Notes: generated by a model from the letters alone, not told the origin. A DNA stretch of 64,000 bases from Abditibacterium sp. (GCA_965199495.1 CBDASK010000003.1:2720001-2784000); one strand, 5' to 3'; counted from the stretch's first letter, positions 31,395 through 55,027 are shown. Translations and numbers: made by a program.

Positions 31395-31576
31395 GTTCGA
31401 TTGTCATTCCGAGAGTAAGGAGCTTGCGACTGGAACTGAGGAATCTTATGCCCGCGCGGCAGCGCAGGTTTGAAGCGCATCTACGTTTAAGGCAAAGTAT
31501 GACTTCCGCTGGCGCGGGGCCGTAAGATTCCTCAGTTCCAGTCGCAAGCTCCTTACTCTCGGAATGACAATCGAAC
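31395..31576. repeat. Long palindromic element (GTCATTCCGAG...CTCGGAATGAC family)
   Basis: Perfect 54-bp arms at 31395-31448 and 31523-31576 between convergent genes. Confidence 0.9.
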
Positions 31577-34086: not shown

Positions 34087-34097
34087 ATTAAGCGATA

Positions 34098-34222
34098 GCT
34101 TGAGATTTTTTTACCACAAAAACACAAAATGTTGGAAGAACAACGCTTAATTTAAAGCAATCTCTTCGCTCTCTTTTGTGCTTTTTGTGAATTCTATGTT
34201 TTGTGGTAAAAAAATCTCAAGC
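34098..34222. repeat. Palindromic element (ACCACAAA...TTTGTGGT type)
   Basis: GCTTGAGATTTTTTTACCACAAAA / TTTTGTGGTAAAAAAATCTCAAGC arms between convergent genes. Confidence 0.8.
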
Positions 34223-34252
34223 ACTCCCTTTGAAAATAGCGCGGCTATAAAT

Positions 34253-35082: not shown

Positions 35083-35245
35083 AATAAGCCACAGAGTTCG
35101 CAGAGAACGCACAGAGGGGCACAGAAAAGCCCGAAGAAAATAAAAGAAGCAGAGAAGAGATATTTTGTATTTTTCTTTTACGCTCTATTTTCTTTGGGCT
35201 TTTCTGTGCCCCTCTGTGCGTTCTCTGCGAACTCTGTGGCTTATT
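35083..35245. repeat. Palindromic element built of (CA)CAGAG / CTCTG(TG) subrepeats
   Basis: AATAAGCCACAGAGTTCGCAGAGAACGCACAGAGGGGCACAGAAAAGCCC with its reverse complement ending at 35245. Confidence 0.9.
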
Positions 35246-35293
35246 TTTGGAAGTGAAGCCCCATTGCACACGCGATTGTTATGCTATTACGCG

Positions 35294-36292
35294 ATGCACC
35301 AAATCGAGCGTCTTATCGAAATAGATCGTCGCGTCCGCGCCGGACTGAAGCCACGCGCGGACGAGTTGGCCGACGAGTTCGAGGTATCGCGGCGCCAAAT
35401 CTATCTCGACCGCCGCAAACTCATCGAAATGGGCGCACCCCTAACGCGCGATGTTGCCGGTGGCTGGGTGTATAGCGAGCCAAACTGGATTTTGCCGTCG
35501 CAGTTTTTGCGCGAGGGCGAATTGCTGGCGTTCTTTTTGTCGGTCGAAATCGCGCGCAGCCAGGGCAACGCCGGATTGCAAACTCAATTGCAAAACGCCG
35601 CCAGCAAAATCGCTAAAAGTCTGGGCGACATTATTTCGGTGGATTTAAACGCGTTGCGCAATTCGACGAGCTATTCTTTATCGCCCGCCGCCAGCGTTGA
35701 CGCCGAATTGCACGCGCACATCTGTCGCGCCATCGCCGGGCGCCGCAAGCTGCGCATGAGCTATTTCACCGCGTCGAGCGGGCGCCAGAGCGAGCGCATT
35801 ATTCATCCGTATCATCTGTATATGGCGCGCGGCGAGTGGATTTTGATCGCCCACGACCAGAGCAAAACCGCCGATGACGCGCCGATTCGCTGTTTCAACA
35901 TCGCGCGCATTTCGGGTTTGCAAGAACTCGTCGGGCGCGACGCAAACTTCCAAATCGCGCCCGATTTCGACGCCAAAACCTACATCCGCGAGATGTTCAC
36001 CGCCGAGCGCGGCGACGAACTGCACGCCGTCGCCATCTGGTTCGACGCGCCCCAAGCCCGCTATATCCGCGAGCGCGTCTGGCACGAAAACCAGACCATC
36101 GAAGAACATTCCGACGAAAGCCTGACGCTGCATTTTCGCGCGAGCGGCCTGAACGAAGTCGCGCGCTGGACGCTGAGTTATGGCCGTCACGCCCGCGTGG
36201 TTTCGCCGCCGCAACTGCGCGCCATCGTCGCCGATCACGCCCGCGAGTTGGCCGCGATTTACGCCGATGTCACGCCGCAAGAACAGTTATAA
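35294..36292 (+). CDS. HTH-WYL-WCX transcriptional regulator
   Basis: ELADEFEVSRRQIYLD, ERIIHPYHL....WILIAH, RCFNIARI, WTLSYG....VSPPQLR. Confidence 0.9.
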   Translation: MHQIERLIEIDRRVRAGLKPRADELADEFEVSRRQIYLDRRKLIEMGAPLTRDVAGGWVYSEPNWILPSQFLREGELLAFFLSVEIARSQGNAGLQTQLQNAASKIAKSLGDIISVDLNALRNSTSYSLSPAASVDAELHAHICRAIAGRRKLRMSYFTASSGRQSERIIHPYHLYMARGEWILIAHDQSKTADDAPIRCFNIARISGLQELVGRDANFQIAPDFDAKTYIREMFTAERGDELHAVAIWFDAPQARYIRERVWHENQTIEEHSDESLTLHFRASGLNEVARWTLSYGRHARVVSPPQLRAIVADHARELAAIYADVTPQEQL

Positions 36293-36302
36293 TTTTTCAC
36301 CT

Positions 36303-37049
36303 ATGCGACTTCATTTTCAACTTTCGCCCAATCTCCAGTCGGTGGATTTCAACTACCATCATTTTTTGGCGGGCGCCGTCCACCGGTGGCTCGGCCCCGA
36401 CAACGCTTATCACGACGGCCTGAGTTTGTATAGCGTGGGCAACTTGCAGGGCGGTTTCGCCGTTCGCGGCCACGCTACAAGCAGCCACGGCCAAGGTCAC
36501 GGCGGCGCCTTGAGCTTCCGTAGCGGCGCGCGCTGGCACATTTCGGCGCCCGATACCGATGGCGGCACCGAGTTTCTGGCCCAAATCGCCAACGCCGCGC
36601 TGCAAAATCCGAGCGTGTGTTGCGGCATGGAAGTCGTCGAAATTTCGAGCGAGAACACGCCCGAATTCGGCGCCAAACGCGTGTTTCGCGCGCAAAGCCC
36701 GATCTTCATCCGGGGTGACAAAGACGGCGAACTCGACCCGCACATCCTCTTCGACAACCCGCAGGCGAGCGCCTATCTGACCCAAACGCTGCGCCACAAA
36801 CTCGACAAAGCCGGATTAAACCATCTCAGCGAAAGCGTGACTGTGCGCTTCGATTTGAGTTATCCGTCGCCCAAAACGCGCTTAATCCGCATTAAAGAGG
36901 GTTTCGACCAAAACGGCAACCGCAAAGATTTCTGCAAACGCGCCAGCGTGTGCCCGGTAATTATTGAGGGCGACGCGGAAGCCGTGCGTTTCGCCTGGAA
37001 CGTCGGCGCGGGCAATCTCACCGGCATGGGTTTCGGGAGTCTGGTTTAA
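36303..37049 (+). CDS. cas6: CRISPR endoribonuclease Cas6
   Basis: HRWLGPDN.YHDGLSLYS, SPIFIR, FAWNVGAGNLTGMGFG G-rich loop. Confidence 0.9.
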   Translation: MRLHFQLSPNLQSVDFNYHHFLAGAVHRWLGPDNAYHDGLSLYSVGNLQGGFAVRGHATSSHGQGHGGALSFRSGARWHISAPDTDGGTEFLAQIANAALQNPSVCCGMEVVEISSENTPEFGAKRVFRAQSPIFIRGDKDGELDPHILFDNPQASAYLTQTLRHKLDKAGLNHLSESVTVRFDLSYPSPKTRLIRIKEGFDQNGNRKDFCKRASVCPVIIEGDAEAVRFAWNVGAGNLTGMGFGSLV

Positions 37050-37073
37050 TGGAACTTCTCAAAGAACGTAAAG

Positions 37074-37170
37074 GTTCCTGCGGCCCGAAGACTCGCGCCA
37101 CGACCTGCCGTATTGAAGAGTTCCTACAGGGACGGTCTTCGCGACTGGATATGGGTAGGGCCGCAGGTCA
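37074..37170 (-). ncRNA. Putative structured RNA, unit 1 (DUF3800-associated)
   Basis: 10-bp closing stem CCTGCGGCCC/GGGCCGCAGG; flanks GTT and TCA shared with unit 2; strand inferred from the adjacent gene. Confidence 0.55.
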
Positions 37171-37247
37171 ATTTTTTCCCTTCTTTAGCTCGAAGTCCAG
37201 TCAAGCGGAACTTTCGACGGTTGCGCGGCATCTTAAACAGCGTAATT

Positions 37248-37356
37248 GTTCCTGCGATCCGAATCTCCGCTCCGGCAGTAGCCGGGCTGACGATACGTTG
37301 CCTCTCGGCGTATGCTGCTTGTCAACAGCCTTCAGTCGCGATAGGATCGCAGGTCA
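37248..37356 (-). ncRNA. Putative structured RNA, unit 2 (DUF3800-associated)
   Basis: 10-bp closing stem CCTGCGATCC/GGATCGCAGG, compensatory relative to unit 1; several internal hairpins. Confidence 0.55.
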
Positions 37357-37375
37357 CCCTCTATTCGCTTCGTTT

Positions 37376-37711
37376 TCAGCGAGTGACGATCAAATTATTT
37401 GTGTCGCTCGCCATCTCCTTCAAAAACTGGCGCAATGCCGAAATTTTGATTTTCCCCATCGTCTGCCTTCGCAACGTGTAGGCCATAATATCGGCCAACT
37501 GAATCATATTACTGGTCTGAGATTCTCTAACTCGCGCATTGAAGCGGCTTCCAGGATGAATTTCTCGGTGACACCGCTTCAATGCGGTTTCAAACGCCTG
37601 TTGCGCGCTCTTGCCTTCATTTTCGGTGTCGCACCACAAATCTCGCACAGGAGCAGGTTCTTGGAGTCTGGTATGAGGAATTACTTTTTTAAGGAACAGA
37701 AGGCGGTTTTT
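37376..37711 (-). pseudogene. C-terminal remnant of a DUF3800-family protein
   Basis: ESQTSNMIQLADIMAY motif; frame closed by TGA TGA at 37717-37712; no N-terminal DESG-type motif found. Confidence 0.6.
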
Positions 37712-37741
37712 TCATCAACAGGAAAAACAAGCGTTGCGACC

Positions 37742-37770
37742 TTGACAAGCATAACGCGACATCCTAAGAT
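37742..37770 (+). promoter_or_regulatory. Near-consensus sigma70 promoter
   Basis: TTGACA (37742-37747), 17 nt, TAAGAT (37765-37770), then GAAGGAGGAG Shine-Dalgarno. Confidence 0.8.
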
Positions 37771-37795
37771 TATCTCCGAAGGAGGAGAATATCCA

Positions 37796-37978
37796 ATGAA
37801 TATGCGTTTGGAAATCGAGACGCAAGTTCTGATTTTTGCGCTCTTGGGATTGGTTGCAGTCATCGTTGCGGTTCTGTTTTTTCAGTCCAATGCCACACGG
37901 CTCCAAACAGTAGCCAAAAGTGGTCAGCAACAAATCTCGATAGATGTAGAACGGCCCATAACCAACAATACCAAATGA
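37796..37978 (+). CDS. 60-aa single-TM peptide (candidate CRISPR-repressed toxin)
   Basis: Strong promoter and SD; MNMRLEIETQVLIFALLGLVAVIVAVLFFQSNATRLQ... Confidence 0.65.
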   Translation: MNMRLEIETQVLIFALLGLVAVIVAVLFFQSNATRLQTVAKSGQQQISIDVERPITNNTK

Positions 37979-38020
37979 TCAAAACACTGCATTTTTCTGT
38001 GATTGGGTTGCTTGCAACTC

Positions 38021-38099
38021 GTTTAATCGAACCTTTGAGGTATTGAAATATGAAAATGCGGTTGATGAGAAGATCGGGAAGATATTCGATGTTTTCCCG
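38021..38099 (+). ncRNA. crRNA-like regulatory RNA: solitary diverged repeat, guide and 3' hairpin
   Basis: GTTTAATCGAACCTTTGAGGTATTGAAAT (38021-38049) keeps the array's ATTGAAAT handle; following bases match 37796-37810 except positions 6 and 12; hairpin at 38075-38099. Confidence 0.75.
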
Positions 38100-38150
38100 G
38101 CTTCGATTCTTAATTAAAGCCTCTATTTTCAGCAGAGAAATCTTCGTGCT

Positions 38151-39806
38151 ATGAACTCATTTAACCTCACCGGCCATTACATTCTTGATGCCTCACTCGC
38201 GGCCTCTGCCGCGTTGCTTGAAGACTACGACAAACGCAGCATCGAAACTCCGCAGCAAATGAGCGGAGCAGATATTCTGCGCGCGTTAGAGCTGGCGGAG
38301 CAACATTTTTACTCCCGTCAAATCTCGAAAGAAAATGATGGCGATTTGCGACCGCTTTTCTACTTCTTGTTACAAGAAATTTTGCCCGGCTCACCTTGGG
38401 ATCAAGTCAAGAGTGGTGCTGTTTCCGAAGGGATGCAACGTAAATTCGCCGAATACATCGCAGAAGCGAAGAGCGCGTTGCTTCAACCTGCTATCGGCAA
38501 ATGTTACCTTTCAGGCCAAGAAGGGCACTTGCTCGTTTCCAAGTCAAATCTACCGATGTTGGCTTCGTCAGGGGAACGCCCAAACTGCTTTCCCAACTTG
38601 AGCGATGGTTTGACCATCAACGGGTATTTGGCGCTGGCCGTTTTGCTCTCTCCGCTCGGCATCGAAAAGACGCTTAACGACAAAGGAAAGGGCGGGCAGA
38701 ACTTGGTGTATCATGCGACGGATTGGCGCTTTATGGTCTCCATTGCAAAGTCGAATATTGATCGCATTCGCCGCTTGTTGGCTTCCAATTCCATTGAGGC
38801 GTTCCGCGCTCGTCATTATCCGAAGTTTCGGCGTGGCTCGTGGAAGAAAGGGCTGCAAACCCTGATGCACGCGACGCAAAACATTCCTGCTGATGCACGT
38901 CCGCAAGTCGTCATCTGGAGCTTCAACGCGTCCAACCAAACCTGTCGTTACGAGTGCCGCGAAACTTCCGACGCGTTTCTCATCATCGCTGCGCAACGAC
39001 TTTTGCAGCCTGCGCTCTACCGCGAATTACTCGGAGTTTCCGATTATGTCGCCCGGCTCATTTTGCAGAGCCAACCGATCATTGGCGCGAGCTTGATGCG
39101 CGATAAGAAGCATCTCGAAATGCGTCCGGGCTGGCCCTTTCAACGATTCTACGCCGAAAAGGTGCTTTTCATGTCTCCAACTTTACTTAACTCCATCGAA
39201 GATGCGGCGCTGGCACTTAGCGCCGACAAAGAGGCGATTAACTATTGTCTTTACGAAGAGAAGCGCCCCAACGTCCGCGTTTTGGCAGATCGCTACAAAC
39301 TCGCGCCAGAAATTGTAGCGCGCTTTGCCAATGCGCCCTCGCAATGGCCGGATTATCTGCGTGCCGCGTTGCTATGGGCCGACAAAGGTAATGCTTTTGA
39401 GCCACGACAAAAAGTCGTGTTCCAGCCGCAAGAACTCGAAGTTAAGTTCAAGGAAATCGCGCCGCGTCTGGCCCACATCGGGTCTTATAAGCTCGCGGCG
39501 CGATTACTCAATCAATACAATCCGCGCGCCTACCGACAAGCATGGATTCGACTTATCTCGCGCAAAGCCGCGACATGGGACGACTTTTTATTCTTCAACC
39601 CCATAGAAGAAGCGTTTGGCAATGGCGACTACGCCCGCACTTCTACGCTTCGCCACTACCTCGTTGCGTATTTGTTGGCTTGCGTTCACCAACAACCCCC
39701 AAACGCGACGGCTTCCGAACCTAATGAAGCCGAAATCGAACGCGACGTGCAGCAAATCGAACGCGAAATTCCCATCGCATCTGAAAACGAAGAGGAACTC
39801 ACCTAA
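38151..39806 (+). CDS. cas8: Divergent Cas8 large subunit (Cas8b1/Cst1-like)
   Basis: Position before cas7; FNLTGHYILDA, CYLSG...LPMLASS..NCFP...SPLG pattern. Confidence 0.7.
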   Translation: MNSFNLTGHYILDASLAASAALLEDYDKRSIETPQQMSGADILRALELAEQHFYSRQISKENDGDLRPLFYFLLQEILPGSPWDQVKSGAVSEGMQRKFAEYIAEAKSALLQPAIGKCYLSGQEGHLLVSKSNLPMLASSGERPNCFPNLSDGLTINGYLALAVLLSPLGIEKTLNDKGKGGQNLVYHATDWRFMVSIAKSNIDRIRRLLASNSIEAFRARHYPKFRRGSWKKGLQTLMHATQNIPADARPQVVIWSFNASNQTCRYECRETSDAFLIIAAQRLLQPALYRELLGVSDYVARLILQSQPIIGASLMRDKKHLEMRPGWPFQRFYAEKVLFMSPTLLNSIEDAALALSADKEAINYCLYEEKRPNVRVLADRYKLAPEIVARFANAPSQWPDYLRAALLWADKGNAFEPRQKVVFQPQELEVKFKEIAPRLAHIGSYKLAARLLNQYNPRAYRQAWIRLISRKAATWDDFLFFNPIEEAFGNGDYARTSTLRHYLVAYLLACVHQQPPNATASEPNEAEIERDVQQIEREIPIASENEEELT

Positions 39807-44745: not shown

Positions 44746-44820
44746 GAGCGGGGCTGGCGCACCCTTCCAATCCAAAATTTGCCTTCGCGCCAAGATTGGA
44801 AGGGTGCGCCAGCCCCGCTC
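44746..44820. repeat. REP-like hairpin between cas4 and cas1
   Basis: 27-bp perfect arms GAGCGGGGCTGGCGCACCCTTCCAATC and reverse complement. Confidence 0.85.
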
Positions 44821-44915: not shown

Positions 44916-46052
44916 ATGAAACGACCCTACTACATTTTTTCGGCGGGCCGCATGCAGCGCCACCAAAACACACTTTATCTGCGGCCTTTTGCCGACGCCG
45001 ACGATCCGCTCGCGGGCGACGACTGGAACGATGCCGCCGCCTTGGGCGGTTGCGCGCTCGAAGATTTGGAGGCCGACGATTTGATGCTCGTGGACTTCGA
45101 CGACAGCGCCTATTCGCCGCGCCCGACGCTGGCCAAACGCCCGATTCCCGTCAACGACATCGAAGCGATTTACCTGTTTGGCGAGTGCGATTTCAATTCG
45201 GCGTTCTTCAATTTTCTCGGCAAAAACCGCGTGCCGCTGCACTTTTTCAACTACTTCGGCTTCTACACCGGCAGCTTCTGGCCGCGCCAAGAAGTCATCT
45301 CCGGGCACACCACGGTTCATCAGGTTTTGCTTTATGCCAACGACCGCAAGCGCGTGGATTTGGCGCGCCTGTTGGTCGAGGGCGCCGCGTTTAACATTCT
45401 CAAAACGCTGCGCTACTACAACGCCGCCAGCCGGGGCCGCGACCTGAGCGCGTGGATTGACACCATCGAATCGAACCGCGCGCTTTTGCCCGCCGCCGCC
45501 GATGTGCCCACGGTGATGGGCATCGAAGGAGCCACGCGCGCCGCCTACTACGAGGCGTGGTCGCAGATTTTTAGTCCGTCGTGGGCCGAGTTTCAAAAGC
45601 GCGTCAAGCGCCCGCCCGATAACCCGGTCAACGCGCTGATCTCGTTCGTCAACAGCCTGTGCTACACGCTGTGCCTGAGCGAGATTTATCGCACCGCGCT
45701 CAACCCGACGATCTCGGTTTTGCATCAGCCCGGCCAGCGCCGCTTCTCACTGGCGCTCGATGTCTCGGAGATTTTCAAACCGGCTTTGGTGGACAGGCTC
45801 ATCTTCAAACTCATCAACAACGGCGAAATCCAGCCCAAACACTTCGATCAGGCGCTCAACTTTTGCCACCTGAATAAAGCGGGGAGGGAAATCGTCGTCA
45901 AAGCGTGGGAAGAACGCCTGCGCGATACCTTCGAGCATCGCGCGCTCAAACGCCGCGTTTCCTATCGCCGCCTGGTGCGCCTCGAATGCTACAAACTGCA
46001 AAAACATATGATCGGCATGGAAACCTACGAACCGTTCAAATGCTGGTGGTAA
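44916..46052 (+). CDS. cas1: Cas1 (type I-B) with acidic N-terminal insertion
   Basis: HFFNYFGFYTGSF, MGIEG, RPPDNPVNALISFVNS, RFSLALDVSEIFKP, LECYKL. Confidence 0.95.
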   Translation: MKRPYYIFSAGRMQRHQNTLYLRPFADADDPLAGDDWNDAAALGGCALEDLEADDLMLVDFDDSAYSPRPTLAKRPIPVNDIEAIYLFGECDFNSAFFNFLGKNRVPLHFFNYFGFYTGSFWPRQEVISGHTTVHQVLLYANDRKRVDLARLLVEGAAFNILKTLRYYNAASRGRDLSAWIDTIESNRALLPAAADVPTVMGIEGATRAAYYEAWSQIFSPSWAEFQKRVKRPPDNPVNALISFVNSLCYTLCLSEIYRTALNPTISVLHQPGQRRFSLALDVSEIFKPALVDRLIFKLINNGEIQPKHFDQALNFCHLNKAGREIVVKAWEERLRDTFEHRALKRRVSYRRLVRLECYKLQKHMIGMETYEPFKCWW

Positions 46053-46475: not shown

Positions 46476-49400
46476 GTTTTAATCGGGTCTTGTGAGATTG
46501 AAATCTACGAGTTCAACGCGGTGAATCCAAGTCGCAGGACGGTTTTAATCGGGTCTTGTGAGATTGAAATCCTTGGTCGAGGGTGGTCAAGGTTTGGCTG
46601 TGGGTTGTTTTAATCGGGTCTTGTGAGATTGAAATTAATTTTATTATAGGCGCTTGTAGCGCCTCGAACGTTTTAATCGGGTCTTGTGAGATTGAAATAA
46701 ATTTCATCCGGCAACTTATATTCATCGGCGATCGTTTTAATCGGGTCTTGTGAGATTGAAATGAACCCATCTTTTCGGTTCCGAAGTTATCCAACAGGTT
46801 TTAATCGGGTCTTGTGAGATTGAAATTCTCGATCTTGGCGCTATGAAAGGTTCGCTTGTCGGGTTTTAATCGGGTCTTGTGAGATTGAAATGGCTTGATG
46901 CTCGTTCGGGATGCCCTTCGGGAAATTGGGTTTTAATCGGGTCTTGTGAGATTGAAATCACGCTCCCCTTCGCAGTAAAGCTCCGGGCGCCGAATGTTTT
47001 AATCGGGTCTTGTGAGATTGAAATTTCTCTTCGCTTCGCCCTTAGATGCCGAAGGCAGGGGTTTTAATCGGGTCTTGTGAGATTGAAATTTAGGGTTTTA
47101 ATCTCCAAAAGGTTAAGCTCCGGGGAAGTTTTAATCGGGTCTTGTGAGATTGAAATTTATATTTAGTCGAAACTTCCCGCCAGCGTTGCGGTTTTAATCG
47201 GGTCTTGTGAGATTGAAATGAGATTCCAAACGCCTTGAATCACGGCGGGAATTCCGTTTTAATCGGGTCTTGTGAGATTGAAATGAGCCTTCCGAAATCG
47301 CTTGGGATTCGCTTCCGTCGGTTTTAATCGGGTCTTGTGAGATTGAAATAATGCCGACGCCGCGCTCATGCCCATTCCAACGCCCAGGTTTTAATCGGGT
47401 CTTGTGAGATTGAAATACGCCCCAAACCTCTTTGGGATATTCGCGGTTCAACGGTTTTAATCGGGTCTTGTGAGATTGAAATACTGGAAAGCCAGAGCTT
47501 CAACAGTCGTGAGTCGGGTTTTAATCGGGTCTTGTGAGATTGAAATACAGATCGAACGCGAACGCGGGCGGCGACGGCACGCCAGTTTTAATCGGGTCTT
47601 GTGAGATTGAAATGAGATTCACAAGTGGGCGCGGCGTCTGCGCTGGGACGTTTTAATCGGGTCTTGTGAGATTGAAATGTCCAAGGGCGACAAAATGACG
47701 TGCCGCGTGCCACCCCGGTTTTAATCGGGTCTTGTGAGATTGAAATACGGTCTTCCAGAACGCGCGGCTGATACTCTTGGCGGTTTTAATCGGGTCTTGT
47801 GAGATTGAAATAAAATCGCAACTTATCGCCGACGAAGAAGCCGCGCAGTTTTAATCGGGTCTTGTGAGATTGAAATCGACATCGAAAGCCTCTTGTTTAG
47901 AAGCAGCAAGGAAGTTTTAATCGGGTCTTGTGAGATTGAAATGATTAAAACAATCGCCACCGACACAGGATTAAGCGAGTTTTAATCGGGTCTTGTGAGA
48001 TTGAAATACGCAACTCACTGATTCAGCATTTTCGTCAGTTTCCGGGTTTTAATCGGGTCTTGTGAGATTGAAATGTCTCAAAATGGACGATGACGAACAC
48101 GAGGCGAAAAGTTTTAATCGGGTCTTGTGAGATTGAAATAAATCTGCGAGCAGTCGGAAGAGTGGGCGCACTCGGTGGTTTTAATCGGGTCTTGTGAGAT
48201 TGAAATATTTTACGACATCCAGAGTCGCAAGGCCGGTTTCGAGGTTTTAATCGGGTCTTGTGAGATTGAAATGTTTTAGATGCCCACGCCGGAATGAACA
48301 CGCCACGAGTTTTAATCGGGTCTTGTGAGATTGAAATCCCAAATTCTCACCAATGCCTCCACAAAATGGTCGTTTTAATCGGGTCTTGTGAGATTGAAAT
48401 TGAGCGAAGATAATAACAAGCGTCCGGTCATACTCGTTTTAATCGGGTCTTGTGAGATTGAAATTTCCCTCAAGGTATGATTGCCAACGGGGACGGCAAG
48501 TTTTAATCGGGTCTTGTGAGATTGAAATTTTGGTGAATCGCTCCAATGAAAAACCAAGGGACGGAGTTTTAATCGGGTCTTGTGAGATTGAAATATGGTT
48601 TGGCCCACGCAACGCTAACAATCAAAAACTAAGTTTTAATCGGGTCTTGTGAGATTGAAATCACCTAAAGCACAAGGAACTGAACTATGGATTTAATGTT
48701 TTAATCGGGTCTTGTGAGATTGAAATCGTTGCCCTGCGTTTGCACGCCCGGCACGCGGGCACGGGTTTTAATCGGGTCTTGTGAGATTGAAATTTCGAGC
48801 GAATCGCCGCCGCCGGGCGCGTTGTTCGGGGTTTTAATCGGGTCTTGTGAGATTGAAATGAACTGATGGCGTAGCCGACATTGAGCGTCATCGAAAGTTT
48901 TAATCGGGTCTTGTGAGATTGAAATCTACAAAATTCGCAGTAGTAGCCCACGAGCCGAGTTTTAATCGGGTCTTGTGAGATTGAAATAAAGCCCCAGTCG
49001 CGGTGTCGCGGCCCCATTAAAACGTTTTAATCGGGTCTTGTGAGATTGAAATTGATAGCCGCTCCGCCAGCGCGCCCACTCTTCCTTCGTTTTAATCGGG
49101 TCTTGTGAGATTGAAATAACTCGATCTCGTCGGGCACGAATCGCTTGCCGTTAGGTTTTAATCGGGTCTTGTGAGATTGAAATCCCTCTGGCAAGTCGCT
49201 CTCGGTTTCGCTCGTCACCGTTTTAATCGGGTCTTGTGAGATTGAAATCAAGAGGCCGGGCCGGGCCACGCGGCGTTGATGGCGAGTTTTAATCGGGTCT
49301 TGTGAGATTGAAATTGCGATAAACCAAGTCGGCACTGTCAAAGCCCGTCGCGTTTTAATCGGGTCTTGTGAGATTGAAATATTCGACCAATGCTGCGCAA

Positions 49401-52400
49401 GCGTGGAGTGTGCGTTTTAATCGGGTCTTGTGAGATTGAAATTCGGTTTCCTTGCGACGCGCGTTTTCTTGGTCGCACGTTTTAATCGGGTCTTGTGAGA
49501 TTGAAATTCTCGTAGAACGCCGAGCCGACGATGACAAACGAGTTTTAATCGGGTCTTGTGAGATTGAAATCCCGCAACAGGCGCGCATTGCGCGACGTAT
49601 CTCGTCGTTTTAATCGGGTCTTGTGAGATTGAAATTTTGCTCGACCTTGGCGCGCCCGGCGTCAATTTGCGGTTTTAATCGGGTCTTGTGAGATTGAAAT
49701 GATTTCTCGCACATGAGACAACACAATCGCTTTGTGTGTTTTAATCGGGTCTTGTGAGATTGAAATACGGTGACGGGGGCACATGGCGGCGAATTGGCGC
49801 TGTGTTTTAATCGGGTCTTGTGAGATTGAAATGGCGGGCACTCGCTTCGCTATCACCGGGGCCGCTTTTTGTTTTAATCGGGTCTTGTGAGATTGAAATC
49901 AAAGTGCGGGCGACACGTTGAAAGCGGCGGGCGTGCGTTTTAATCGGGTCTTGTGAGATTGAAATTGCACATAATCAGAGACATAACCCAACGCCACAAG
50001 CGGTTTTAATCGGGTCTTGTGAGATTGAAATGACTTCACAAGCGAGCGCAAGCGCGCTTCCTCATCCTGGTTTTAATCGGGTCTTGTGAGATTGAAATTG
50101 CGCTGACAGACTGGCAGGAATGAATTTGGTATGAGTTTTAATCGGGTCTTGTGAGATTGAAATAGGCCGACGCGCTGGTGTCGGCGTCTCGTTTTCTCAG
50201 TTTTAATCGGGTCTTGTGAGATTGAAATCGATGCGCGGATTGGCGATGCGGCGCACGATGGGAGCCGTTTTAATCGGGTCTTGTGAGATTGAAATCGATT
50301 TGCAAGAAATACGATCTGGTGTATTACGGTGGTTTTAATCGGGTCTTGTGAGATTGAAATGCTTATAAGGCGACCAGCCGTTTTTGTTCATCAAATGTTT
50401 TAATCGGGTCTTGTGAGATTGAAATTCATGGAACACGAGCGGCCAATTTCGGAGCGCTATTGTTTTAATCGGGTCTTGTGAGATTGAAATTGGAAGTCGC
50501 CGTAGAAACGCGCAAATACGAATATCGTTTTAATCGGGTCTTGTGAGATTGAAATACAACAGCGACATTAATCGCATCGAAGTCGGCAAAGGTTTTAATC
50601 GGGTCTTGTGAGATTGAAATAAAACAGCATATCCGCTTCAACGGAAACAATAGTTGTTTTAATCGGGTCTTGTGAGATTGAAATCAAACGCCGCCGCACT
50701 CCGACATCCGCGAGATTCAGTTTTAATCGGGTCTTGTGAGATTGAAATTAGCGTTTTCGCGTTTTGTCCACTTCTGCGGCGGCGCGTTTTAATCGGGTCT
50801 TGTGAGATTGAAATCGCTCGCCTTCGTTCCAGTTCCTGCGCCTCGGCTTCGAGTTTTAATCGGGTCTTGTGAGATTGAAATATTCTGCGCGGTCGGCGTC
50901 CTGCGCCAGTTGAAACGGTTTTAATCGGGTCTTGTGAGATTGAAATCGTTTTTGCGCAATGTTTTCGCGAATTTGTGGACGGCGGTTTTAATCGGGTCTT
51001 GTGAGATTGAAATACGGCACGGTTCGCGGCGCCCCGGTGCGCCGAAACGTGTTTTAATCGGGTCTTGTGAGATTGAAATACTGTTCCAACTTGTCTTCGT
51101 AAACTTGCGAATTGAGTTTTAATCGGGTCTTGTGAGATTGAAATTCATCAATTTGAACAAGGCGGCGTTTTCCTTTCATGGGGGTTTTAATCGGGTCTTG
51201 TGAGATTGAAATACCTCACCTGATATTCAAAGACGTGGCTCCTAAAGAGTTTTAATCGGGTCTTGTGAGATTGAAATTCATGCAACTCGAATGCGACGAG
51301 GCGGACGCGCTCGGTTTTAATCGGGTCTTGTGAGATTGAAATAATGCCACGCTATCAAGGAGGGCGGGCGCCAATGCGTGTTTTAATCGGGTCTTGTGAG
51401 ATTGAAATCTTATAGAGAACGCGCGTGACGCGCGCAGTAATCAAGGTTTTAATCGGGTCTTGTGAGATTGAAATGATGGAAGAGATGGTTTTTCGCGAAG
51501 GTTACGAAGCGGGTTTTAATCGGGTCTTGTGAGATTGAAATGTTTCCCCCACTATTCCCGGCTTTACGCCGGATGAGTTTTAATCGGGTCTTGTGAGATT
51601 GAAATCCCACTGCGCCACCGTGACAAGGCCCGCATCGCTCCACGGTTTTAATCGGGTCTTGTGAGATTGAAATCTGCTACATCGTCGCGCGAAGGCAATC
51701 GCTCGATGAAGTTTTAATCGGGTCTTGTGAGATTGAAATGTTCGTCGGTCGAGACGCGCGCGCATAAAATACAACGTTTTAATCGGGTCTTGTGAGATTG
51801 AAATCCTGGGCCTTGACAGTGCCTTCGGGCAAAGGGAAGGGGTTTTAATCGGGTCTTGTGAGATTGAAATCTGGGCGCACGCAATCGCGCCCGGCGCGAT
51901 GTCGTAGTTTTAATCGGGTCTTGTGAGATTGAAATTTTTCATCACGGGCGGCAACTCGCGCAAACGCGCGAGTTTTAATCGGGTCTTGTGAGATTGAAAT
52001 AACAGATTCTCGAAGCCGGTCGCCGATGGGATTTACGTTTTAATCGGGTCTTGTGAGATTGAAATAGACAACCTGCCGCTTGCGCCCGTTTGCACGCGCC
52101 AAGGTTTTAATCGGGTCTTGTGAGATTGAAATGCTCGGTGTCCCCGACCTGCCCGCTATCGAGGTAGTAAGTTTTAATCGGGTCTTGTGAGATTGAAATC
52201 TGTCGCTGTCGAGTTCGGTGTGCAACACGGCGTCGGTTTTAATCGGGTCTTGTGAGATTGAAATCGCGCGTAAAACGTGCGAAAGCCACCGAACTTATTG
52301 GTTTTAATCGGGTCTTGTGAGATTGAAATGCGCGCCGTTCCAGTCGGTCGCCTCGCAACTCGTTAGTTTTAATCGGGTCTTGTGAGATTGAAATATTTAT

Positions 52401-55027
52401 GCGAACGCATCGCGGCGTATCTGGTTTTGGGGTTTTAATCGGGTCTTGTGAGATTGAAATTTGGATGGCGCGACGAGCGCACGACTCAGGGCGAAGTTTT
52501 AATCGGGTCTTGTGAGATTGAAATTTTGAATGGGATTGATCGAGAGAGAAAAGCGGGCAACGTTTTAATCGGGTCTTGTGAGATTGAAATGAGCAACTCG
52601 TCAAGCTCAAGCTGTCGCGCAAGTTGCGTTTTAATCGGGTCTTGTGAGATTGAAATAACTGCACCGCGACAAAGACGGCAACCCGAATTTGAAGTTTTAA
52701 TCGGGTCTTGTGAGATTGAAATTCATAGTAATAATCGCCTTGTCGGTCGTCCGATGTTGGTTTTAATCGGGTCTTGTGAGATTGAAATAAGTGTCGGACA
52801 TGACGACCGCGCGGCGTTTGGCGCGCGGTTTTAATCGGGTCTTGTGAGATTGAAATTGCCGCCCGCATCATTCACTTGAACCGATTCCAGGGCGTTTTAA
52901 TCGGGTCTTGTGAGATTGAAATTCACCTTTACGAGCGCGCGCTACTGCGCAAGGCGATGTTTTAATCGGGTCTTGTGAGATTGAAATAACGTCGCCGTTG
53001 TCCCAGCGCTGGGACGAAAGCGGGTTTTAATCGGGTCTTGTGAGATTGAAATCTTATGAATATCCTCAAGCCCGTCGTCTGTCTGGCGCGTTTTAATCGG
53101 GTCTTGTGAGATTGAAATAGAGCTGTGTCATCGGCGCGTTTCGCAAATATCTCCGCGTTTTAATCGGGTCTTGTGAGATTGAAATATTTGTCGGTGGCCA
53201 CCAACCTGACGGTCGAGCAAGGCGTTTTAATCGGGTCTTGTGAGATTGAAATGCTTCTTTTCGTCGTCAATAACGTCGCCGAGAGCTGTTTTAATCGGGT
53301 CTTGTGAGATTGAAATGACGTTCGAGCGGGCGACATTATAACCGGAGACGGGCGGTTTTAATCGGGTCTTGTGAGATTGAAATATTTGCCGGGGCTTCCG
53401 GCGCCGATTCGCGCGGCGGGTTTTAATCGGGTCTTGTGAGATTGAAATGAGATTCCAAACGCCTTGAATCACGGCGGGAATTCCGCGTTTTAATCGGGTC
53501 TTGTGAGATTGAAATTATTGATAGGCGCGCGACTTCTGCAACTGGAAGCGTTGTTTTAATCGGGTCTTGTGAGATTGAAATAAATCAACGCTCCATATCC
53601 GCGTCCATCGCTTCGGGAGTTTTAATCGGGTCTTGTGAGATTGAAATTTTAATCGCGCGACTTATCGCCGGGTGATTATGTCCGTTTTAATCGGGTCTTG
53701 TGAGATTGAAATGTTTTCTCGACGCCCGCCACGATGCCCGAAAACTGGGTTTTAATCGGGTCTTGTGAGATTGAAATGCTTTGCACGGCACGCGGCACCC
53801 TGCGCCAGTGCGGGTTTTAATCGGGTCTTGTGAGATTGAAATTTTTAACAACATTATTGTAACAATGTCCCGGTTTTTTGTTTTAATCGGGTCTTGTGAG
53901 ATTGAAATGGAAGGTTGAAATGGAGGAGGCTGCATCCGCCCTAAAAGTTTTAATCGGGTCTTGTGAGATTGAAATTAACTTGCGTCGTCGTAGGAGATGT
54001 TTTGGCCGCGATGTTTTAATCGGGTCTTGTGAGATTGAAATCTCGACAAAGGTCGCCTTTGCGTCGTAGGGCAAACCGGGTTTTAATCGGGTCTTGTGAG
54101 ATTGAAATATGGAACCGGAGTCGAGACTAAAACTCGCTACTTCAGTTTTAATCGGGTCTTGTGAGATTGAAATTGATGTCCACTCAGGAGCGAGTGGCGA
54201 TTTTTGGCAGGTTTTAATCGGGTCTTGTGAGATTGAAATACCAATAGACAAAGGGCAATCCTTGGCCACGAGTATTGGTTTTAATCGGGTCTTGTGAGAT
54301 TGAAATGATTCACGCACGTTGGCGGTCTTATCGCCGCTTTGAGTTTTAATCGGGTCTTGTGAGATTGAAATGCCTCTTTGTCACTCTTGCAATTCTTTCA
54401 AAGGCGGTTTTAATCGGGTCTTGTGAGATTGAAATTGCGTAACGTAGCCAGTCGCGCCGGGGTCGTCGGCCGTTTTAATCGGGTCTTGTGAGATTGAAAT
54501 CACGCTCGATGCCCTGCGCAGCGTCAACCTCAATTCGAGTTTTAATCGGGTCTTGTGAGATTGAAATACGTTTTGGGTTCGGCGAAAGACATAGCCGAAG
54601 CAAGTTTTAATCGGGTCTTGTGAGATTGAAATAATGAACGCGGGGTTTGGAAGCGACGGGCTTAACCGGTGTTTTAATCGGGTCTTGTGAGATTGAAATT
54701 TGGCGAAAGTCGGCGGCGTCTAATAACCATTTGTGGGTTTTAATCGGGTCTTGTGAGATTGAAATGACAGTTGGACGCCGACCCGATGTTGGCCGTTGGC
54801 GAGTTTTAATCGGGTCTTGTGAGATTGAAATTGACAAATCGCCAAACTCTTTTCGATCCATTCCCGAAGTTTTAATCGGGTCTTGTGAGATTGAAATGCT
54901 GAACGGCACCGGGCACGCGGCGCAATACGCGCATGTTTTAATCGGGTCTTGTGAGATTGAAATCATTAGCCGCTGCCGGTCATTCGACGCTGCTCGTTGT
55001 TTTAATCGGGTCTTGTGAGATTGAAAT
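46476..55027 (+). CRISPR. CRISPR array, 29-nt repeat GTTTTAATCGGGTCTTGTGAGATTGAAAT, about 131 repeats and 130 spacers (about 33-39 nt)
   Basis: Manual count; orientation from leader position and ATTGAAAT 3' end. Confidence 0.98.

What the first reader, a model, noticed from the sequence alone, without database searches (positions are those of the whole stretch)
38037..38154. The guide doubles as an AGA-rich uORF coupled to cas8, with its SD inside the repeat
Seen: GAGGT in the variant repeat lies 8 nt before ATG 38050. The 34-codon ORF MKMRLMRRSGRYSMFSRLRFLIKASIFSREIFVL ends in TGA overlapping the cas8 ATG (ATGA, 38151-38154). It has four AGA codons, including ATG-AGA-AGA ahead of a hairpin, and cas8 has no clear SD of its own. 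Established: Cas6 cuts 8 nt from the repeat 3' end, here exactly between the SD and the ATG, and the CreT RNA toxin acts through AUG-AGA-AGA rare-codon sequestration. Inference: cleavage would both release the repressor guide and uncouple cas8 translation, and the uncut RNA may have CreT-like activity.
Basis: partly seen in the sequence, partly recalled or inferred. Interest (0 to 1): 0.7.

Follow-up and report, generated by a model that had tools for sequence, protein, structure and literature searches.

The report
CRISPR guide silencing small membrane gene
A stray CRISPR repeat makes a short guide RNA that probably lets the cell's CRISPR complex switch off a small, otherwise unknown membrane-protein gene and its own genes, and the short reading frame noticed inside the guide is most likely a by-product.

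Summary
The sequence facts hold: GAGGT 8 nt before ATG 38050, 34 codons, four AGA, ATGA overlap with an SD-less type I-B cas8. The coupling and CreT reading is mostly not supported.

The guide starts with ATG because it copies its target: nt 1-15 (except 6 and 12) match the start of a 60-aa transmembrane ORF (37796-37978) behind a CCA PAM, about 20 nt after a predicted transcription start. In the one genome with the same cassette (G004), promoter, small ORF (pS 0.78, pN 0.23), repeat, guide-target match and hairpin persist. There the frame stops at codon 7, has one AGA, and cas8 has a strong SD. GAGG occurs in ordinary array repeats of two relatives, three of four AGA lie in the hairpin's 5' arm, and 78% of starts here lack an SD.

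Best reading: a one-repeat CreA/CreR guide repressing one transcript that carries an ORFan membrane protein (candidate CreP-like toxin; toxicity untested), the guide and cas8. Lineage-specific coupling stays possible (~0.12): both genomes keep the 101-nt spacing, and four or more AGA arose in 1.2% of shuffles. No RNA data.

The parts
37742..37770 (+). Predicted sigma-70 promoter (TTGACA, 17 nt, TAAGAT) for the small ORF, guide and cas8 operon
   Evidence: 10 of 12 consensus match (3 sites found against 1.3 expected by chance); -35 box identical and -10 box 5 of 6 identical in G004. Start site near 37777 is inferred.
37780..37785 (+). Strong SD (AGGAGG) of the small ORF
   Evidence: -12.6 kcal/mol; -11.6 in G004
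37793..37795 (+). PAM CCA
   Evidence: Kept in G004. CC-N lies 5' of both G004 spacer matches in G000 contig C2 (CCC, CCG). CCA or CCT precedes all 6 guide targets found.
37796..37810 (+). Guide target (protospacer), which is also the start of the small ORF
   Evidence: Guide nt 1-5, 7-11 and 13-15 match. PAM-anchored run 15, against at most 8 for 130 of 130 array spacers in the same 971-nt region. G004 matches nt 1-11 and 13-18.
37796..37978 (+). 60-aa single-pass membrane ORFan; candidate CRISPR-repressed toxin
   Evidence: 62% identical to the G004 copy; pS 0.78 against pN 0.23; codon-position identity 42/50/27 of 61; peak KD19 hydropathy 3.3 and 2.9 from residue 11; no further homologue or family
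38021..38049 (+). Solitary variant repeat; GAGGT 38037-38041 (AGGT is the 3' stem arm); 8-nt handle 38042-38049
   Evidence: 25 of 29 identical in G004
38050..38073 (+). Guide (spacer-like), about 19-24 nt free of the hairpin
38069..38104 (+). Hairpin closing the guide (core 38074-38100); no U-tract
   Evidence: z -2.1; G004 has a hairpin of different sequence at the same place, z -3.1; not called as a terminator
38050..38154 (+). 34-codon open frame (the finding), read as a by-product
   Evidence: broken at codon 7 in G004; 28 of 83 nt identical beyond guide nt 18
38151..39806 (+). cas8 (large subunit; named from position and weak Cas8b/CXXC hits), first gene of cas8-cas7-cas5-cas3-cas4
   Evidence: Neighbours named by NCBIfam, no NCBIfam hit for this gene; PADLOC Cas8b E 0.01; Pfam Cas_CXXC_CXXC E 0.11
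36303..37049 (+). cas6, after a WYL/WCX regulator gene (35165-36292)
   Evidence: TIGR01877 E 2e-13, below the curated cut-off; WYL and WCX domains
46476..55027 (+). CRISPR array, 131 identical 29-nt repeats

Best explanation
38021-38104 is a one-repeat CreA/CreR-type regulatory guide. One promoter (37742-37770) transcribes a 60-aa membrane ORF, the variant repeat, the guide, a hairpin and cas8-cas7-cas5-cas3 (inferred: no terminator or second promoter was found). Cas6 cuts the repeat, leaving an 8-nt handle plus a short guide capped by the hairpin (inferred from the family). Cascade loaded with it binds CCA plus the first 15 nt of the small ORF, pairing the template strand about 20 nt after the start site. 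It blocks transcription without cutting, because pairing is well under 26 nt (inferred). This autorepresses Cascade and keeps the small protein off. Loss or inhibition of Cascade would release the protein, which most likely acts as a CreP-like membrane toxin (about 0.5; untested). The 34-codon AGA frame is a by-product of the target's start codon, the repeat stem and the hairpin arm. Shown from sequence: target match, PAM, conservation, selection on the small ORF, non-conservation of the frame. Inferred: processing, repression, toxicity.
For: Guide-target match broken only at positions 6 and 12, with CCA. Run 15 against at most 8 for 130 control spacers. Of 29 genome sites with the 10-nt seed, 3 have a CC-N flank, and only the target extends to 15. 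G004 keeps the cassette with an 18-nt run while 55 of 83 downstream nt differ. PAM support independent of the guide: 2 of 2 G004 spacer matches have CC-N; the 2 self-matching G000 spacers do not. Guides with CCA/CCT targets occur in 6 of 21 type I-B loci screened; only the 2 whose target is a start codon begin with ATG. Small ORF: purifying selection, strong SD and TM segment in both genomes. A type I-B system represses with 26 nt or less of pairing, more strongly on the template strand and also inside an ORF (PMC10551041, passages). One-repeat creA exists (PMC8501985 Discussion).
Against: No expression data. Only 2 genomes carry the cassette, both of one genus, so they are not independent. 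The small protein has no family, so toxicity rests on position and analogy. Published targets I read about lie in or near promoters, not on a start codon. How the guide's 3' end is freed from the cas8 message is unexplained. Only 4 spacer matches bear on the PAM.
Confidence: 0.72

Rival explanations
1. Pure CreR autorepression: the guide throttles the cas8 operon and the 60-aa protein is harmless cargo or an accessory membrane protein. This differs from the best reading only in the protein's role.
For: G008 and G327 have guides with CCA/CCT targets and no such small ORF was found there. No toxin family matches the protein.
Against: The target sits on the small gene's start, and the gene keeps one of the strongest SDs in the genome (stronger than -8.4, reached by 16 of 504 starts) under selection while repressed. 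This is the layout of CrePA.
Confidence: 0.35
2. Translational coupling, at least in this lineage: ribosomes load at the repeat's SD, read the 34 codons and restart at cas8; Cas6 cleavage uncouples cas8.
For: SD -7.0 at 8 nt; ATGA overlap; G000 cas8 has no SD where G004 has -11.2 and L014 -15.2. The 101-nt spacing is the same in G004, with 27 open codons after its TAG-ATG.
Against: G004 has a stop at codon 7 and its own SD. G008 cas8 (83% identical) has neither SD nor uORF. Only 109 of 504 confident starts reach -3.5 kcal/mol, and cas6 and cas3 also lack an SD. The cas8 start is no more structured than a typical start (-4.0 against median -4.7). The SD is predicted paired (unpaired probability 0.07 or less for AGGT). 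An open frame arises in 23% of shuffles.
Confidence: 0.12
3. The uncut guide precursor is itself a CreT-like RNA toxin (SD, AUG, AGA-AGA, hairpin) that Cas6 disarms by cutting off the SD.
For: AGA is 2.6% of Arg codons, with one tRNA-Arg(UCU) gene, and in-frame AGA-AGA occurs 12 times in 1,921 long ORFs. The SD, ORF, hairpin order is as in CreT; rare codons need not follow the AUG directly and the stop is dispensable (PMC8501985; 10.64898/2026.06.02.729485 section 7). G004 also has SD, six codons, stop, hairpin.
Against: The ATG next to AGA-AGA has no SD. G004 has a single AGA, dictated largely by its target. Three of 4 AGA lie in the hairpin arm. Known CreT genes are separate from creA. The guide's target heads a protein gene under selection.
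Confidence: 0.06
4. A decayed repeat with chance matches and no function.
For: A broken DUF3800-like gene lies next door, so the region does decay.
Against: Repeat 25 of 29 identical and guide-target match kept while synonymous sites are near saturation; control spacers never exceed run 8.
Confidence: 0.04

Closest known systems
CreA/CreR regulatory guides of type I-B (Haloarcula hispanica creA; crRNA-like mini-arrays)
   Same: Degenerate repeat with intact 8-nt handle between cas6 and cas8, partial seed match to a PAM-flanked site at a cas promoter; one-repeat form known (10.1101/2023.03.10.532045 part 1 of 6 and passages; PMC8501985 passages and Discussion; 10.1101/2023.03.03.530964 passages).
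   Different: The target is a start codon downstream of the predicted start site. The guide lies inside the repressed transcript, directly in the cas8 leader, and ends in a hairpin without a U-tract or second repeat.
CrePA (Acinetobacter baylyi type I-F; KilAC-domain CreP)
   Same: A guide next to the effector operon matches a PAM-flanked site heading a small protein gene (10.1101/2024.01.05.574328 part 1 of 8 and passages; PMC12737573 passages).
   Different: Type I-B. The protein is a 60-aa single-pass membrane ORFan with no KilAC or phage family hit; toxicity unknown; CreP's target is about 120 bp upstream of its ORF.
tRNA-sequestering CreT RNA toxins (H. hispanica AGA-AGA, H. hubeiense AUA-AUA) and the P. 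aeruginosa proline-codon CreT
   Same: SD, start codon, consecutive rare codons and a downstream hairpin all occur in G000 in this order.
   Different: The pair is at codons 7-8 of a 34-codon frame and partly in the stem; the adjacent ATG has no SD; the pair is absent in the orthologue; the RNA is the guide itself.
Type I toxin-antitoxin membrane peptides (general class, PMC12737573 passage; Hok/TisB names recalled)
   Same: Small hydrophobic protein held down by an RNA.
   Different: No Pfam match at E up to 5; repression would be by Cascade on DNA, not antisense pairing.

Membership tests
CreA/CreR guide | Repeat-like element with conserved 8-nt 5' handle | tested here: met
   Last 8 nt identical to the array repeat; 25 of 29 kept in G004
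CreA/CreR guide | Partial seed match to a site with the system's PAM | tested here: met
   Run 15 (G000) and 18 (G004) behind CCA; controls at most 8; CC-N from 2 spacer matches
CreA/CreR guide | Target at or near the repressed promoter | tested here: met
   25 nt after a predicted, conserved -10 box; start site not mapped
CreA/CreR guide | Second degenerate repeat (common, not required) | tested here: not met
   No conserved second repeat; hairpin instead
CreA/CreR guide | Cas6 processing and Cascade-dependent repression | not testable with these tools
   No RNA holder listed
CrePA | Real protein gene headed by the guide's target | tested here: met
   pS 0.78, pN 0.23; SD -12.6 and -11.6; same length in both genomes
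CrePA | Homology to CreP (KilAC domain) | tested here: not met
   No hit at E 0.001 or better in NCBIfam, Pfam, PHROGs or PADLOC
CrePA | Protein toxic when derepressed | not testable with these tools
   Needs an expression assay
tRNA-sequestering CreT | Efficient initiation (strong SD, AUG) | tested here: inconclusive
   -7.0 for ATG 38050 but predicted paired; -1.1 for the ATG before AGA-AGA
tRNA-sequestering CreT | Two consecutive rare codons near the start | tested here: inconclusive
   Codons 7-8 in G000, AGA rare; absent in G004
tRNA-sequestering CreT | Downstream stem-loop | tested here: met
   also explained as the guide's 3' cap
tRNA-sequestering CreT | Codon pair kept in homologous modules | tested here: not met
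   0 of 1 orthologous cassettes
tRNA-sequestering CreT | Toxicity relieved by the cognate tRNA | not testable with these tools
   Bench test
Translationally coupled uORF | Stop-start overlap with the downstream gene | tested here: met
   ATGA 38151-38154
Translationally coupled uORF | Frame conserved from SD-led start to overlap | tested here: not met
   0 of 2 close orthologues; phase alone kept in G004
Translationally coupled uORF | Downstream gene unable to initiate alone | tested here: inconclusive
   No SD, but typical for this genome; start unstructured

The most novel reading that the evidence does not exclude
One transcript carries a new membrane toxin, its antitoxin guide and the Cascade genes. 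In this lineage the uncut RNA is also translated from an SD inside the repeat, through AGA-AGA, into cas8. Cas6 cleavage then flips a single RNA from a cas8-coupling, possibly tRNA-sequestering leader into the repressor guide. The milder form, a CrePA-like module with a new membrane toxin targeted at its start codon and no role for the uORF, has probability about 0.45.
Probability: 0.08. Interest if true: 0.8.

Novelty: new variant of a known kind. Interest (0 to 1): 0.42.

Why it matters
The one proteinic CRISPR-repressed toxin in the papers I read is the type I-F KilAC protein CreP. A membrane-acting one in a bacterial type I-B system, silenced by a guide aimed at its start codon and co-transcribed with the guide and Cascade, would widen the known ways CRISPR systems guard themselves against anti-CRISPRs and loss. 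The cassette is about 410 bp and directly testable. The case also shows how a guide aimed at a start codon creates a convincing but probably incidental SD-ATG-ORF.

Tried and rejected
Small-protein homologues: word search, none; profile against 1.84 billion representatives, only the two known copies plus one repetitive unrelated hit, 3 in all; 2 of 27 family and 2 of 401 phylum genomes, own included; none in viral contigs or plasmids. ESM Atlas: best hits unnamed archaeal clusters at 0.90 or less, taken as a lead only. PHROGs weak hits (best E 0.004) differ between the two copies, rejected. AlphaFold from a 2-sequence alignment gave one long helix, pTM 0.42; no fold search or complex job was run on it. 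A Hok-like architecture was considered from recall; no Pfam support. No RNA holder listed. Rfam found only 3 tRNAs in the window. Metagenome and genome scans added 1 and 2 loci; L014 has cas6 directly before cas8 with no cassette. The 23-codon frame 37975-38046, which also has an ATGA overlap, is shifted by a 4-nt indel in G004 and was rejected. A possible second repeat near 38091-38119 is not conserved. Six loci were screened in the wrong orientation and redone, with no guide found. The SD survey uses my own crude start calls (504 of 2,859 long ORFs), so its percentages are approximate. Earlier-findings look-ups returned nothing. Literature searches listed no paper on a uORF inside a regulatory guide or on a CRISPR-repressed membrane toxin. 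The library lacks most subscription papers, and I read no supplements; these may list bacterial I-B modules like this one.

Full report
Setting. The finding lies between cas6 (36303-37049) and cas8 (38151-39806) of a type I-B locus: WYL regulator, cas6, cas8, cas7 (Cst2/DevR), cas5, cas3, cas4, cas1, cas2, then 131 identical repeats. cas8 has no NCBIfam hit and is named from position and weak Cas8b/CXXC hits. The two closest cas8 records are titled Abditibacterium sp.. The window is G000:C3:2720001-2784000.

Observation. Every sequence statement is correct, and a short-read contig agrees base for base over 37568-38400, though it may be the source sample. In 20,000 shuffles of guide nt 16-101 the frame stayed open to cas8 in 23%, held four or more AGA in 1.2%, AGA-AGA in 5.0% and ATG-AGA-AGA in 0.12%. 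AGA is rare here: 2.6% of Arg codons, one tRNA-Arg(UCU) gene. The AGA content is therefore somewhat unusual, and the overlap is not; 245 of 504 confident starts begin ATGA.

Why the guide starts with ATG. The sequence after the repeat matches 37796-37810 at nt 1-5, 7-11 and 13-15, behind CCA; tolerance of every sixth position in type I Cascades is recalled knowledge. That site is the start of a 60-aa ORF with a -12.6 kcal/mol SD, 25 nt after the -10 box of a 10-of-12 promoter. None of 130 array spacers exceeds a PAM-anchored run of 8 in the same region; the guide reaches 15. Of 29 genome sites with the 10-nt seed, 3 have a CC-N flank, and only this one extends to 15. The PAM has support independent of the guide: both G004 spacers that match G000's contig C2 are preceded by CCC and CCG, while the two G000 spacers matching their own chromosome are preceded by AGC and CGT (362 spacers tested, 4 matches at 80% or better). 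I screened 21 type I-B loci, own included, and found handle-guide-target sets in 6: G000, G004, G008, G327 and two in G010, all with CCA or CCT. Only the two whose target is a start codon begin with ATG.

Orthologues. cas8 matched 6 of 61 genomes searched, two closely: G004 87%, G008 83%. G004 keeps the promoter, SD, PAM, small ORF, repeat (25 of 29) and an 18-nt guide-target run, and has a hairpin of different sequence at the same position (z -3.1; G000 -2.1). Its guide frame reads MKMRLR then TAG, with one AGA; beyond nt 18 only 28 of 83 nt are identical; its cas8 has its own SD of -11.2. G008 has a different, reverse-strand guide aimed at a site just upstream of cas8; its cas8 has no clear SD (-3.4) and an in-frame stop three codons before the overlap. 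Against my reading: the guide-to-cas8 distance is 101 nt in both G000 and G004, and G004 has an ATG directly after its TAG with 27 open codons to the same ATGA. Shuffles give that open stretch in 31%, and this ATG has no SD (-2.7).

The other features. AGGT is the 3' arm of the repeat's stem and is predicted paired. GAGG at this position is ordinary: it is in 128 and 214 array-repeat matches of G010 and G009, and GAGGT is in repeats on three viral contigs, none followed by ATG. Three of the four AGA codons fall in the purine-rich 5' arm of the hairpin. Only 109 of 504 confident starts reach -3.5 kcal/mol; cas6 and cas3 have no SD either; and the cas8 start is no more folded than the median. 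The SD before ATG 38050 is nonetheless strong for this genome (30 of 504 starts reach -7), so some translation of uncut RNA is possible.

The small protein. It is under purifying selection (pS 0.78, pN 0.23; cas8 0.67, 0.07), has one hydrophobic segment from residue 11, and has one homologue in all searches. No family or fold evidence bears on its activity. Calling it a toxin is inference from its position under the guide, its strong SD and its likeness in kind to membrane peptides of type I toxin-antitoxin systems.

Mechanism. Most likely (0.72): transcription from 37742-37770 runs through the small ORF, repeat, guide, hairpin and cas8 operon. Cas6 leaves an 8-nt handle (PMC12102369, passage). 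Cascade with a guide of about 19-24 nt binds the template strand at the small ORF's start and represses without cutting, as shown for 26 nt or less in another I-B system, including inside an ORF (PMC10551041, passages). This gives Cascade autorepression and, if the protein is toxic, addiction and anti-anti-CRISPR defence. Unexplained: with no second repeat or terminator, the guide's 3' end must be trimmed from the cas8 message, so guide production may cost cas8 mRNA whether or not the uORF matters.

Comparison. It works like CreA/CreR and meets the testable features. It resembles CrePA in layout but is not a CreP homologue. It is not filed as CreT, because the codon pair is not conserved and the adjacent ATG lacks an SD. 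Papers seen: 10.1101/2024.01.05.574328 (part 1 of 8 and passages); 10.1101/2023.03.10.532045 (part 1 of 6 and passages); PMC8501985 (passages and Discussion); 10.1101/2023.03.03.530964 (passages); PMC12737573 (passages); 10.64898/2026.06.02.729485 (abstract and section 7); 10.1101/2024.10.29.618823 (passages); PMC12102369 and PMC10551041 (passages). The type I-B PAM papers were seen as a listing only. No supplements were read. Searches listed no guide-embedded uORF or CRISPR-repressed membrane toxin; the library is incomplete.

Verdict. Observation confirmed; interpretation partly supported. The uORF coupling (0.12) and CreT (0.06) readings are unlikely. The element of value is a guide-repressed ORFan membrane gene in a type I-B leader: a new variant of a known kind, interest 0.42.

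Noticed in passing
L098 6880-7740 and L097 2366-3190 (G010); L008 3703-4413 (G008); window 37049-37700: Genes or remnants resembling the window's weak DUF3800 hit (E 7e-4) sit between cas6 and the effector genes on the opposite strand. In both G010 loci a repeat-derived guide targets a CCA/CCT site 49 nt away, next to that gene's predicted promoter. They are candidate CRISPR-repressed cargo or toxins. The window's copy is truncated; the L097 copy is split in two.
   Followed up: partly
L003 1330-1470 (G008): Reverse-strand degenerate repeat with a guide matching 14 of 15 counted positions at a CCA site just upstream of cas8: CreR-like, without the small ORF.
   Followed up: partly
L023 1390-1470 / L047 2860-3300 (G327): Two-repeat mini-array before cas8 with a guide matching a CCT-flanked site on the opposite strand.
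   Followed up: partly
array spacer after the repeat at window 48831; target G000:C3:593119-593155 (L049, 280-aa membrane gene): Spacer 37 of 37 identical to a chromosomal gene, flanked by AGC instead of CC-N; a second spacer matches C3 near 4220148 at 34 of 38 with flank CGT.
   Followed up: partly
G000 contig C2 near 18320 and 61249: Two G004 spacers match this 64-kb contig (32 of 36 and 33 of 36), suggesting a mobile element that circulates in the genus.
   Followed up: no
L007 12900-13880 (G004 array); L097 3227-4059 (G010): Transposase-like ORFs interrupt the G004 array and the G010 cas leader; the transposase label is recalled from their look, not from a family search.
   Followed up: no
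window 31395-31576, 34090-34230, 35083-35245, 44746-44820: Long intergenic inverted repeats, with arms of 75, 32, 60 and 27 nt at 91-100% complementarity; possibly miniature mobile elements.
   Followed up: no
window 44916-45130: cas1 has an acidic N-terminal insertion; the Cas1b profile match starts only at residue 73.
   Followed up: no
genome-wide: Most gene starts lack an SD and have A/T-rich, G-poor leaders although the 16S tail has a standard anti-SD (crude start calls).
   Followed up: partly
viral contigs L057, L058/L059, L062: Short arrays or mini-arrays whose repeat is close to the variant repeat; possible phage-borne crRNA-like elements.
   Followed up: no
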